Virus record (IMG/VR): IMGVR_UViG_3300035670_000143
Span: 1 to 64,000 of that record
Source: a virus
Reading direction: 5' to 3' (one strand)
Length of the DNA stretch: 64,000 nt
In this document: positions 44,585 through 47,157 of the stretch, piece after piece
Numbering within the stretch: position 1 is the stretch's first letter
Layout of the letters: each line of letters begins with the position of its first letter
The notes under the pieces: generated by a model
What the model saw: the letters and a program-made list of their open reading frames with translations, nothing else
What the model was told of the DNA's origin: nothing
Databases searched by the model: none
Position numbers and translations under genes: made by a program

Positions 44585-44883
44585 TGAAAAGAGATGAAAA
44601 ACAAGAAGCAAAACGTGATGGGGCTAAGACAGTTAAAAACTCTGGTCGTGGTCTTAAGAAGGGTGATGCAACTTTGAATAAGTTTTTGCTTGATTATAAA
44701 CATAATGCATCAACATTTACTTTATCTAATGATGCTTGGGTTAAGATGAGAAAGGACGCATGGCGATCCAATTACAGGTATCCATGTATATCTGTTGTTC
44801 TAGGTGAGAACTCAGAAAACAAAGTAGCCATTATTGACTGGGATGTTTTCAAGGATCTCATCGAAGGTTCAGATTATGAGTAA
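44584..44883 (+). CDS. Holliday-junction-resolvase-like PD-(D/E)xK protein
   Basis: NSGRG..KGDA....LDYK motif. Confidence 0.6.
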   Translation: MKRDEKQEAKRDGAKTVKNSGRGLKKGDATLNKFLLDYKHNASTFTLSNDAWVKMRKDAWRSNYRYPCISVVLGENSENKVAIIDWDVFKDLIEGSDYE

Positions 44884-44992
44884 TTTTATTATTATTGTAG
44901 CAACATTCTATGTTGTATTTATTGTTGCATCTAGAATGATACTGAAATCAATTAAAGAAATAGACGAAAAGGATCCTTTTGATGAAACCTAG
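44876..44992 (+). CDS. 38 aa single-TM protein (not in the ORF track)
   Basis: MSNFIIIVATFYVVFIVASRMILKSIKEIDEKDPFDET; overlaps both neighbours. Confidence 0.55.
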   Translation: MSNFIIIVATFYVVFIVASRMILKSIKEIDEKDPFDET

Positions 44993-46070
44993 TTTTGGTT
45001 CTTTATTTGCTGGTGCTGGTGGTTTTGACATTGGTTTTGAGCAAGCCGGATGGGAGTGCTCATGGCAGGTTGAATGGGATAAAAATTGTCAAAAAGTTTT
45101 ATCTCATAAATGGCCGGATGTCCCGAAATATCTTGATGTTCAGACGGTTAGTGGATATCAGTTGACACCAGTAGACACGATCATATTTGGTTCACCATGC
45201 CAAGATCTATCAGTAGCAGGTCGCCGTGCTGGTCTAATTGGTGAGAAATCATCAATGTTTTTTGAAGCAACAAGAATTATCAAGGAGATGAGAAATGCAA
45301 CAGGAAATCAATACCCAAGAGTCGCTGTTTGGGAAAACGTCCCAGGCTCCCTCACAAGTAATAAAGGAGCAGACTTTGCAGCAGTCCTTGACGAAATGGC
45401 CAACATCGGGGCATTGGCAATCGAATGGCATGTGCTGGACGCACAATGGTTCGGAGTCCCCCAGCGTAGAAGAAGAGTCTTCCTCATCGCTTCTTTCGAT
45501 CCTGCAATCGTCAGAAGAAGTGGACAACAAATACTTCCTATCGCAGAAAACAGCGCAGGGGATATTAAGAAGATCAGGGCGAAAAGAGGGGTTGATTCCA
45601 CCTCTTTTGAAGAAGGCTCTCGTGATAGCCTCAGAGAGTTAGATGTTTTTGTAAAAGCAAGAAGAGCTCAAAGTTCAGAGGATTATGAAACATGGGAATC
45701 TGGGAGGCCATCGCCTACATTGAATGCTTTTGATAATGCTAGTGAATCAAGGGCTACTGTTTTAATCGTTGACGGAACCAGAACTAACGATTTTCGAGTG
45801 TATGATGATGGTACGGTTCCAACATTAAAGGCTAGAATGGGTACTGGGGGAGGACAAGTTCCACTGGTCTCACGGTCAGATCAGGGCTACCGACTCAGGA
45901 GGTTAACGCCCTTGGAGTGTGAAAGACTTATGGGTTTCCCTGATGACCATACAAAATATGGCAATGATGGTAAGGTTATATCTGACACTAATAGATATAA
46001 AATGATAGGAAATGCTGTTGCTGTGCCTGTTTCTAAATGGGTAGCAAATAATCTAAAACAATTAATCTAA
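44982..46070 (+). CDS. dcm: C5 cytosine DNA methyltransferase
   Basis: Motifs I FAGAGG, IV GSPCQD, VI ENV, VIII PQRRRR, IX RRLTPLECERLMGFP, X GNAV. Confidence 0.92.
   Translation: MKPSFGSLFAGAGGFDIGFEQAGWECSWQVEWDKNCQKVLSHKWPDVPKYLDVQTVSGYQLTPVDTIIFGSPCQDLSVAGRRAGLIGEKSSMFFEATRIIKEMRNATGNQYPRVAVWENVPGSLTSNKGADFAAVLDEMANIGALAIEWHVLDAQWFGVPQRRRRVFLIASFDPAIVRRSGQQILPIAENSAGDIKKIRAKRGVDSTSFEEGSRDSLRELDVFVKARRAQSSEDYETWESGRPSPTLNAFDNASESRATVLIVDGTRTNDFRVYDDGTVPTLKARMGTGGGQVPLVSRSDQGYRLRRLTPLECERLMGFPDDHTKYGNDGKVISDTNRYKMIGNAVAVPVSKWVANNLKQLI
45295..45642 (+). CDS. Nested +1-frame ORF inside dcm, beta-subunit-like
   Basis: SD AAGGAG 45282-45287, 7 nt before the ATG; WPTSG..W..SESPSVEEE..LSIL..KYFLS..GILRR..P.LLKKAL. 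Confidence 0.65.
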   Translation: MQQEINTQESLFGKTSQAPSQVIKEQTLQQSLTKWPTSGHWQSNGMCWTHNGSESPSVEEESSSSLLSILQSSEEVDNKYFLSQKTAQGILRRSGRKEGLIPPLLKKALVIASES

Positions 46071-46096: not shown

Positions 46097-46414
46097 ATGG
46101 CTGATATTATTGTTGACCCAGACTGGCTGGCTGAGCAGATGGGTGATAAGGCAACAGAATTTCTTGAATGCATGAGAATTGTTCAAGATATTATTGAGAA
46201 CCCTGACTCTTATGTTGGTATTCAGGCATTAAAATATGCCAATGTTTTGGCTGCATATAGAACTCAAATGATCATTAAATCACAAGCATATAAAAGAAGA
46301 TCGCAGATCATGTCAGAAAATGATAAACTTACAAACGATATTTGGAAAACAATGTATGAATCGTTAGTAGAGAATATCAATGTTCTTAAGTTAATAGGAA
46401 GAGGTGTTCATTGA
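46097..46414 (+). CDS. Hypothetical helical protein
   Basis: ORF with upstream TGATATTAT and SD-like AGGCGG. Confidence 0.65.
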   Translation: MADIIVDPDWLAEQMGDKATEFLECMRIVQDIIENPDSYVGIQALKYANVLAAYRTQMIIKSQAYKRRSQIMSENDKLTNDIWKTMYESLVENINVLKLIGRGVH

Positions 46415-47157
46415 TGAAAGCGCTAAACTACCTAAAAAAGGGTCCAGACATAAAGCAGGCTGTTGTTGAAGATGAGATGACGAATGCTGATATTGAGAAT
46501 GAACTTATTGAAAAAATAGATAAGTCTTTCGTAGTGAGAAATGACAAGCAGTTTAAAAAAGTAGGGGGCTTTCATCCTAGTTATACAAACCAATGCTCCA
46601 GATTTTGGTTTTATCTATTTGAAGGAGTAGAAATGGAAACAAGTTTCTCCCCTCAAACATATAGGATTTTTGACAACGGTCATGCTGTGCATGAAAGAAT
46701 TTACGGGTACTTCCGTGACATGGGTATCCTCGTAGCAGAAGAAATACCTGTGACTTATTCCGACCCCCCGATTGAGGGTACTGCCGACGGTATCATTGAT
46801 TTTCATGGCAATAAACTTATTGAACTAAAATCAATATCCAATGAAGGCTTTGAGTACAGAAGAATATATAAGAAGCCGAAAGACGATCACTTTAGACAGG
46901 CTCAAATATATATGAGATGCCTTGATCTTGATCAAGCATTTGTTATTTATGAAAATAAAAATAATCAACAAATACTTCCTCTGTTGATCGACAGAGATGA
47001 TGCATTTATTGACAAGTTGTTTGTTAAATATCGTAAGTTTTATAAAAACTTTACCGACAATACTATCCCAGCTCGTCCATATAAAATGACATCTAAAAAT
47101 TGTAGCAATTGTGATCTTGCTTCAATGTGTTGGAACGATGAAAGAAGTGGTGAATAA
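46414..47157 (+). CDS. Cas4-like PD-(D/E)xK exonuclease
   Basis: QCSR, GHAVH, GTADG..ELKS, QAQIYM, C..C.....C. Confidence 0.85.
   Translation: MKALNYLKKGPDIKQAVVEDEMTNADIENELIEKIDKSFVVRNDKQFKKVGGFHPSYTNQCSRFWFYLFEGVEMETSFSPQTYRIFDNGHAVHERIYGYFRDMGILVAEEIPVTYSDPPIEGTADGIIDFHGNKLIELKSISNEGFEYRRIYKKPKDDHFRQAQIYMRCLDLDQAFVIYENKNNQQILPLLIDRDDAFIDKLFVKYRKFYKNFTDNTIPARPYKMTSKNCSNCDLASMCWNDERSGE

What the first reader, a model, noticed from the sequence alone, without database searches (positions are those of the whole stretch)
45282..45642. Overprinted gene inside the C5 methyltransferase resembling a beta subunit, although the main frame is complete
Seen: a 115 aa +1-frame ORF overlapping motifs VI-VIII, with a well-spaced SD (AAGGAG, 7 nt). 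Established: M.EcoHK31I needs a beta polypeptide encoded in an alternative frame within alpha, and beta supplies motif IX. From memory, the W..SG...W....E.PSVEEE..LS..L segment resembles that beta chain, and KYFLS..GILRR..P..L..AL resembles sequence found in-frame in other Dcm variable regions. Here motifs IX and X stay in the main frame. Inference: a two-chain methylase whose nested chain supplies part of the target-recognition region or regulates activity, possibly an evolutionary intermediate of split MTases.
Basis: partly seen in the sequence, partly recalled or inferred. Interest (0 to 1): 0.75.

Follow-up and report, generated by a model that had tools for sequence, protein, structure and literature searches.

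The report
Hidden gene inside phage cytosine methyltransferase
A second, 115-residue protein is encoded one base out of step inside this virus's DNA cytosine methyltransferase gene; selection keeps it in dozens of distant relatives (including phage P1 dmt), and it probably supplies a piece of the enzyme that the main chain lacks.

Summary
ORF 45295-45642 (+1 frame, ATG, AAGGAG 7 nt upstream) lies inside the C5-methyltransferase gene 44982-46070.

It is more than chance or local GC.
- In about 50 non-identical viral homologues (40-80% identity), +1-frame stops in this region number 40 against 166 expected. The flanks give 374 against 377 and 669 against 678.
- The Shine-Dalgarno box and the ATG co-vary.
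- The wobble position switches from the main frame to the +1 frame over main codons 169-216 and then switches back.

Only the last ~50 residues (SLL.IL...KYFLS..GILRR...LP..L..AL) are selected as protein and fold confidently, as helices. The first ~60 residues are a disordered shadow of motifs VI-VIII.

- Relatives exist in which this ORF runs on in frame into motifs IX-X (L085/L086).
- The module aligns weakly with the in-frame segment after motif VIII of E. coli Dcm.

Best reading: a small second chain of the enzyme. No expression or binding data exist.

It has no motif IX, so it is not EcoHK31I-beta-like in content. Direct comparison with beta was not possible.

The same nested gene is in P1 dmt and is annotated only in phage MM1. 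This scan had already noted it in many other genomes.

The parts
44982..46070 (+). Main-frame C5 cytosine DNA methyltransferase (362 aa from ATG 44982; TTG 44979 is an alternative start). It carries motifs I, IV, VI, VIII, IX and X.
   Evidence: PF00145 at E 1.6e-59 over residues 6-360. hhalign to E. coli Dcm residues 88-284 at probability 99.5. In the AF2 model, residues 1-190 and 303-362 are confident and 193-302 have pLDDT below 50.
45282..45287 (+). Shine-Dalgarno box AAGGAG of the nested gene, written in the K-E codons of the main-frame IKEMR.
   Evidence: AAGGAG plus 7 nt plus ATG occurs in 34 homologues. It is absent in all 18 whose ATG lies 9 nt further on; those carry AGGGAG or AGAGAAG in front of the displaced ATG instead.
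45295..45642 (+). Nested +1-frame gene, 115 aa plus stop.
   Evidence: The frame is open in all of about 50 non-identical homologues. It has 760 relatives at E<=1e-3 among 1.84 billion representatives.
45295..45486 (+). Leader of the nested protein (aa 1-64), which is the +1 reading of motifs VI-VIII. It is kept open but not selected as a protein sequence.
   Evidence: Wobble follows the main frame. pLDDT is below 50. Main-frame third-position entropy is 0.8-1.1 here against 1.4-1.6 elsewhere.
45487..45621 (+). Selected module of the nested protein (aa 65-109: SLLSIL..V..KYFLSQKTAQGILRR....IPPLLKKAL), predicted as three helices.
   Evidence: Wobble follows the +1 frame. Pairwise identity is 0.68 in +1 against 0.42 in frame 0. 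pLDDT is 80-92, with helices at 66-69, 84-96 and 103-114. hhalign aligns it to Dcm 309-338.
45483..45626 (+). Main-frame codons 169-216: kept open, but most variable at codon position 1. This stretch reads as a linker dictated by the nested frame.
   Evidence: the position of highest entropy switches. (0 frame-0 stops against 43.5 expected, with an ascertainment caveat).
45333..45341 (+). Motif VI (ENV), main frame.
45462..45476 (+). Motif VIII (QRRRR), main frame.

Best explanation
The methyltransferase gene codes in two frames.

What the two frames make:
- Ribosomes that start at ATG 44982 make the 362-residue enzyme with all ten motifs. Its stretch after motif VIII (codons 169-216) is only a linker.
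- Ribosomes that start at the internal AAGGAG-ATG (45295) read the +1 frame. They make a 115-residue protein with a disordered leader (the out-of-frame reading of motifs VI-VIII) and a ~45-residue helical module.
- That module corresponds to the segment that follows motif VIII in frame in one-chain enzymes such as E. coli Dcm, at the entry to the small (target-recognition) domain.

Proposed role: the small protein binds the main chain and completes or tunes that domain, so the active enzyme has two chains made from one stretch of DNA.

Shown: the nested frame is conserved, has its own conserved start signals, and is under protein-level selection in its C-terminal module.

Inferred: separate translation, binding to the enzyme, and need for activity.
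For: 1. Open frame. In the region aligned to codons 106-221 of about 57 non-identical IMG/VR homologues, +1 stops number 40 against 166 expected from segment-only synonymous shuffles (ratio 0.24). The N-terminal flank gives 374 against 377 and the C-terminal flank 669 against 678 (ratio 0.99 each). In every homologue of ordinary GC content the open frame begins 1-7 codons before the position of the ATG.

2. Start signals co-vary with the position of the ATG.

3. Selection switches frame. Main-frame position 3 is the most variable everywhere except codons 169-216, where position 1 (the +1 wobble) is (the same is seen from the +1 alignment). Amino-acid identity in the module is 0.68 in +1 against 0.42 in frame 0, and the reverse holds over motifs VI-VIII.

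4. Synonymous variation of the main frame is reduced over the overlap.

5. Natural fusions. In L085 and L086 (77 and 64 kb contigs) the main frame stops after motif VIII, and the nested ORF runs on from its own ATG through the recognition region and motifs IX-X. P0013, P0015, P0022 and P0052 have the same build.

6. Co-linearity with Dcm. The main-frame profile aligns to Dcm 88-284. The nested module aligns to Dcm 309-338, scoring 19.9 against a mean of 11.7 and a maximum of 19.7 in 200 shuffles.

7. AF2 gives a disordered leader and a confident helical module.

8. In 81 of 86 non-redundant viral C5-MTase genes fetched, the K-Y-x-L-S motif lies in the +1 frame after motif VIII. It is never in frame 0. 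P1 dmt, phage MM1 and phiCD119 carry it too.
Against: - There is no direct evidence of translation.
- The main frame is complete and stays open, so the enzyme might work alone.
- The Dcm match is weak (hhalign probability 2-3%, E about 0.02) and is a single pairwise comparison.
- Pfam PF00145 does not match the module.
- Most fused forms are singletons in the protein collection and could be decaying genes, although L085/L086 and the P0039 cluster (13 members) are not.
- Homologues fall into a few clades, so the counts are not independent events.
- The test that frame 0 stays open across the module has an ascertainment bias.
Confidence: 0.6

Rival explanations
1. The nested gene is real, but its product works on its own, for example as a small DNA-binding regulator of the methylase or of a partner nuclease, or as an anti-defence factor. 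On this reading the methyltransferase gene merely hosts it.
For: The main frame holds all ten motifs. The module is a short basic helical unit with no match to PF00145 or to any solved structure. Overprinted viral genes often encode accessory functions (general knowledge; PMC8227390).
Against: The nested gene is found only inside C5-MTase genes, always at the same place after motif VIII. It is fused in frame to motifs IX-X in some relatives. It is co-linear with an in-frame Dcm segment.
Confidence: 0.2
2. The module is not made as a separate protein. Ribosomes translating the main frame shift +1 after motif VIII and shift back later, so the module is inserted into a single chain.
For: The order motif VIII, module, recognition region, IX-X at the DNA level is that of a one-chain enzyme. 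In L085/L086 a single +1 shift would give a complete enzyme.
Against: The window type would need two shifts. The main frame has no stop or pause site there and stays open. The +1 frame is kept open for 64 codons upstream of the module, with no stop in any homologue of ordinary GC content, and it has a co-varying SD and ATG. Frameshifting would need none of this. The junction (nested aa 67-78) is variable in both frames, with no conserved slippery site.
Confidence: 0.07
3. The ORF is a by-product of locally GC-rich, conserved sequence and is not translated.
For: GC is 0.50 here against about 0.35 around it, and two antisense frames are also open across the same stretch. The leader is the shadow of conserved motifs.
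Against: Shuffles that keep the protein and the local codon usage still predict stops, while the flanks match expectation exactly. The wobble pattern switches to the +1 frame over the module. The start signals co-vary.
Confidence: 0.03

Closest known systems
M.EcoHK31I (E. coli HK31, YGGCCR): alpha and beta chains, with beta encoded entirely in another frame inside the alpha gene (Lee, Kam and Shaw 1995, as described in PMC2836561 and PMC3404938).
   Same: A C5-MTase gene with a second polypeptide encoded in an alternative frame inside it. In beta, progressive N-terminal deletions weaken binding to alpha only gradually (PMC2836561).
   Different: Beta carries motif IX and alpha lacks it. Here motif IX is in the main frame, and the nested chain carries the segment that follows motif VIII instead. 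Sequence likeness to beta could not be tested. EcoHK31I is described as a single case, whereas this nested gene runs through a large clade.
M.AquI (CYCGRG): alpha holds motifs I-VIII plus part of the variable region, and beta holds the rest plus IX-X (PMC3404938).
   Same: The enzyme is divided within the variable region after motif VIII. The relatives L085/L086 and phiCD119 ORF60/61 have this division.
   Different: In the window the main frame is continuous through IX-X. The second chain starts 64 codons inside the first, in another frame.
E. coli Dcm (one chain), segment 309-338 after motif VIII.
   Same: The pattern L..lL....V..KY.L(S/T)P lies at the same place relative to motif VIII.
   Different: It is in frame in Dcm. 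The likeness is weak (23% identity over 30 columns).
Streptococcus phage MM1 ORF14 (MM1p15), annotated inside ORF13 (MM1p14) in NC_003050.2.
   Same: The same kind of nested +1 ORF, ending in CSLSDILE...RYFLS, and annotated as a CDS with product 'DNA methyltransferase' and note 'DNA methylation'.
   Different: It starts further upstream, before motif IV. It lacks the GILRR...LP..L..AL helices. No functional study was found in the library.

Membership tests
C5 cytosine DNA methyltransferase (PF00145), main frame | Motifs I (F.G.GG), IV (PCQ), VI (ENV), VIII (Q.R.R), IX (RRLTP.E) and X (GN) in one frame. | tested here: met
   hhalign to Dcm at probability 99.5.
EcoHK31I-type two-chain C5-MTase | The second chain is encoded in an alternative frame inside the gene of the large chain. 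| tested here: met
EcoHK31I-type two-chain C5-MTase | The small chain carries motif IX and the large chain lacks it. | tested here: not met
   The nested ORF has no PF00145 match and no motif IX pattern. Motif IX is in the main frame.
EcoHK31I-type two-chain C5-MTase | Sequence similarity of the small chain to EcoHK31I beta. | not testable with these tools
   The paper with the sequence is not held and the later paper has no supplement held. tblastn of plasmids found only a Deinococcus dcm.
EcoHK31I-type two-chain C5-MTase | Both chains are needed for methylation. | not testable with these tools
   This needs an experiment.
AquI-type split C5-MTase | Motifs I-VIII and motifs IX-X lie on separate polypeptides. 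| tested here: not met
   The window's main frame is continuous. The feature is met in relatives L085/L086, L053-L057 and phiCD119.
Functional overlapping (dual-coding) gene | The alternative frame is kept open beyond expectation in diverged relatives. | tested here: met
Functional overlapping (dual-coding) gene | Purifying selection on the alternative-frame protein. | tested here: met
   for the C-terminal module only.
Functional overlapping (dual-coding) gene | Evidence of translation. | not testable with these tools
   No RNA or ribosome data. Conserved, co-varying start signals are indirect support only.

The most novel reading that the evidence does not exclude
A whole clade of phage and mobile-element C5 cytosine methyltransferases, including P1 dmt, are obligate two-chain enzymes. 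The first element of the recognition domain has moved into the +1 frame. It is made as a separate small protein by internal initiation 64 codons upstream, across motifs VI-VIII. The catalytic core is therefore dual-coding, and routine annotation misses a subunit in these genes.
Probability: 0.5. Interest if true: 0.85.

Novelty: new variant of a known kind. Interest (0 to 1): 0.77.

Why it matters
- If the small chain is part of the enzyme, many phage and mobile-element cytosine methyltransferases are annotated, cloned and assayed without a subunit. That would affect predictions of specificity, heterologous expression and methylome interpretation.
- It would be one of the most widespread and oldest same-strand overlapping genes known in phages, laid over the most conserved motifs of an enzyme. 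That makes it a useful case for how dual coding arises and constrains evolution.
- It can be tested directly in a model system (P1 dmt in E. coli) with silent mutations.

Tried and rejected
- The look-up of encoding contigs. Contigs for P0015 and P0052 could not be fetched; related loci were used instead.
- Complex prediction. No test of binding was made.

Searches that gave nothing useful:
- Pfam found nothing for the nested ORF or for its relatives in MM1, P1 and L132. The phiCD119 ORF gave only two weak hits below the curated cut-offs (MCM_WH_arc, Cas_Cas02710), which I take as chance.
- PHROGs gave only phrog_16143, 'DNA methyltransferase', at E 3e-10.
- The PDB profile search gave only chance hits. 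Foldseek on the nested model gave nothing.
- The word-index protein search found one near hit and no longer ones. This is weak evidence, because the exhaustive search found 760.

EcoHK31I beta: PMC306636 is not held and no supplement is held, so no direct comparison was made.

Literature: searches for the motif, for overlapping genes in cytosine methyltransferases and for MM1 orf14 found no description of this nested gene. The one paper containing 'GILRR' was unrelated.

Other items:
- No RNA holder was listed among sequencing runs.
- Alignment A3 (fused forms plus fragments) was misaligned and was not folded.
- My part-A count of '0 against 51' is partly true by construction. The unbiased support is.
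- The first block-identity script mishandled gaps and was redone.

Full report
**What is there.** The window is part of a 74,949-base IMG/VR virus record. It carries a C5 cytosine methyltransferase gene from TTG 44979 or ATG 44982 to 46070 (PF00145, E 1.6e-59). The gene sits in a DNA-metabolism block with RecA, a pyrimidine-dimer glycosylase and RuvC. Inside it, in the +1 frame, an ORF runs from ATG 45295 to TAG 45642 (115 aa). AAGGAG lies at 45282-45287, 7 nt before the ATG, and a TGA lies one codon upstream. The ORF overlaps motif VI (ENV, 45333-45341), motif VIII (QRRRR, 45462-45476) and the start of the variable region.

**Is it chance?** Local GC is 0.50 against about 0.35 around it, and two antisense frames are also open here. 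Composition therefore contributes. Shuffling synonymous codons while keeping the protein gives 5.0 expected +1 stops in the region (P of none 2e-4). Shuffling within the region only gives 2.4 (P 0.013).

The decisive control is comparative. I fetched 80 viral loci that encode relatives and mapped the region by the main-frame alignment. In about 57 non-identical homologues (40-80% identity in the region):
- the +1 frame has 40 stops against 166 expected from segment-only shuffles;
- the N-terminal flank of the same genes has 374 against 377;
- the C-terminal flank has 669 against 678.

The few stops lie at the far end, where some homologues carry insertions. In every homologue of ordinary GC content the open frame begins 1-7 codons before the position of the ATG.

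**Start signals.** The SD is written in the K-E codons of the conserved main-frame IKEMR.
- In 34 homologues the arrangement is AAGGAG, 7 nt, ATG.
- In 18 others the main-frame residues do not allow that ATG. The ATG then lies 9 nt further on, the K-E codons are not AAGGAG, and a new purine box (AGGGAG or AGAGAAG) stands before the displaced ATG.
- Gene-wide, these genes prefer AAA and GAA.

The homologues fall into a few clades, so these are not 52 independent events. The co-variation is nonetheless what a translation start predicts.

**Which frame is selected where.** Main-frame codon position 3 is the most variable position along the whole gene except in codons 169-216. There position 1 is the most variable, and position 1 is the wobble position of the +1 frame. 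The pattern returns to position 3 after the nested stop. The alignment built on the +1 protein shows the same switch at nested residues 60-70. Mean pairwise amino-acid identity:

| Stretch | Frame 0 | +1 frame |
|---|---|---|
| Over motifs VI-VIII | 0.70-0.78 | 0.56-0.60 |
| Over KYFLS...AL | 0.42 | 0.68 |

. Main-frame third-position entropy drops to 0.8-1.1 across the overlap, against 1.4-1.6 elsewhere.

The nested protein therefore has two parts.
- Residues 1-64 are the out-of-frame reading of motifs VI-VIII. For example, FGKTS is the +1 reading of WENV, and ESPSVEEE is the +1 reading of GVPQRRRR. This part is kept open but is not selected as a sequence.
- Residues 65-109 are selected as protein.

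AlphaFold2 agrees. Residues 1-60 have pLDDT below 50. Helices at 66-69, 84-96 and 103-114 have pLDDT 80-92.

In turn, main-frame codons 169-216 are dictated by the nested frame. They stay open in all homologues (0 stops against 43.5 expected), although that test is biased by how the homologues were chosen.

**How widespread.** An exhaustive HMMER search of 1.84 billion representative proteins found 760 relatives at E<=1e-3. None of the best 150 has motifs I, IV, VI and VIII in frame with the module. Apparent stand-alone forms such as P0038 are longer +1 readings that start before motif IV (read by eye). Among the C5-MTase genes in all fetched viral loci, 81 of 86 non-redundant genes have K-Y-x-L-S after motif VIII in the +1 frame, none in frame 0 or +2, and 5 have none.

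Cultured phages carry it too.
- A related module query found 177 phage records.
- Phage MM1 annotates the nested ORF as ORF14 inside ORF13.
- phiCD119 has the enzyme in two annotated pieces, plus the nested ORF.
- P1 dmt holds a 163-codon +1 open frame ending in RYFLSSKACAGILRRGEKRRKSLPPLLQMAL. This was a lead from earlier notes of this scan, and I checked it here.

**What it does.** Two lines tie the product to the enzyme.

First, natural fusions. In L085 and L086, from two different metagenomes, the main frame ends soon after motif VIII. The nested ORF runs from its own ATG through the module, the recognition region and motifs IX-X. In those genes IX-X can be expressed only from the nested frame. 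P0013, P0015, P0022 and P0052 have the same build, though most are singletons. L053-L057 and L061 have three pieces.

Second, co-linearity with a one-chain enzyme. The main-frame profile aligns to E. coli Dcm 88-284, ending at motif VIII. The only alignment of the nested profile to Dcm is module residues 65-96 with Dcm 309-338, just downstream. It scores 19.9 against a mean of 11.7 and a maximum of 19.7 for 200 shuffled Dcm sequences. The match is weak (23% identity, probability 2-3%), but it falls at the predicted place. The window's own main frame shows no such match.

The most economical reading is that the segment which opens the small domain in one-chain enzymes is made here as a separate small protein that joins the main chain. 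Binding, and need for activity, are inferred and not shown.

**Rivals.**
- An independent function for a real nested gene remains possible (0.2).
- Ribosomal frameshifting is unlikely (0.07). It would need two shifts, there is no pause or slippery site, and it explains neither the 64 open codons upstream nor the start signals.
- A compositional artefact is contradicted by the flank controls and the wobble switch (0.03).

**Compared with what is known.** M.EcoHK31I is the precedent for a chain encoded in another frame inside a C5-MTase gene. Its beta chain carries motif IX (PMC2836561, PMC3404938), and the nested ORF here does not. The beta sequence could not be obtained. M.AquI is the precedent for a split after motif VIII. 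The window is not split, but its relatives are. I found no paper that describes this conserved nested gene. The MM1 record annotates one copy. I class it as a new variant of a known kind.

This scan has noted the same feature on many other genomes, and follow-up reports reached similar conclusions. My scores rest on the tests made here.

Noticed in passing
window 44984-45941: In the source subsurface metagenome (4 runs of one study), a minor variant at about 5% of depth differs from the window at 36 of 284 bases (44984-45267) and at 31 of 313 bases (45629-45941). It shares an identical 421-base unitig (45238-45658) that covers the whole nested ORF, and it shares the sequence outside the gene. 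This could be allele mosaicism of the methyltransferase by recombination, or extreme constraint on the dual-coding part. The data are contigs only.
   Followed up: partly
window 45252-45530 (-) and 45308-45601 (-): Two antisense ORFs of 92 and 97 aa are open across the same GC-rich stretch. Neither has a family match. They are probably by-products of the doubly constrained sequence.
   Followed up: partly
window 44876-44992 (+): A 38-codon ORF with a hydrophobic N-terminal half lies between the upstream gene and the methyltransferase. Its ATG overlaps the upstream gene's last codons (its stop TAA is at 44881-44883), and its stop overlaps the methyltransferase start. It may encode a small membrane protein.
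   Followed up: no
L169:21711-22199 (phage P1, NC_005856.1 66710-67198): The dmt gene of model phage P1 holds an unannotated 163-codon +1 open frame ending in the same GILRR module. This gives a handy system for experiments.
   Followed up: yes
L168:1033-1458 (phage MM1, NC_003050.2): The nested ORF is annotated here (MM1p15/ORF14, product 'DNA methyltransferase', note 'DNA methylation') inside MM1p14/ORF13. This is the only annotated copy I met.
   Followed up: partly
L085:2146-3178 and L086:2146-3178: A two-chain form. Alpha (motifs I-VIII) stops at 2823. Beta runs from the nested ATG at 2501 through the module and motifs IX-X, giving an overlap of about 107 codons.
   Followed up: yes
L083:1158-2508 (Curvibacter phage PCA1): The annotated 'DNA methyltransferase' CDS starts in the +1 shadow and joins motif VIII in frame, while motifs I-VI lie in another frame upstream. 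This is either a frameshift between motifs VI and VIII or a sequencing error. The module ORF is in a third frame.
   Followed up: partly
window 46411-47157 (+): A 248-aa ORF with a C-terminal cysteine cluster (C..C.....C) and no Pfam match. From memory it looks like a Cas4/RecB-type nuclease.
   Followed up: no
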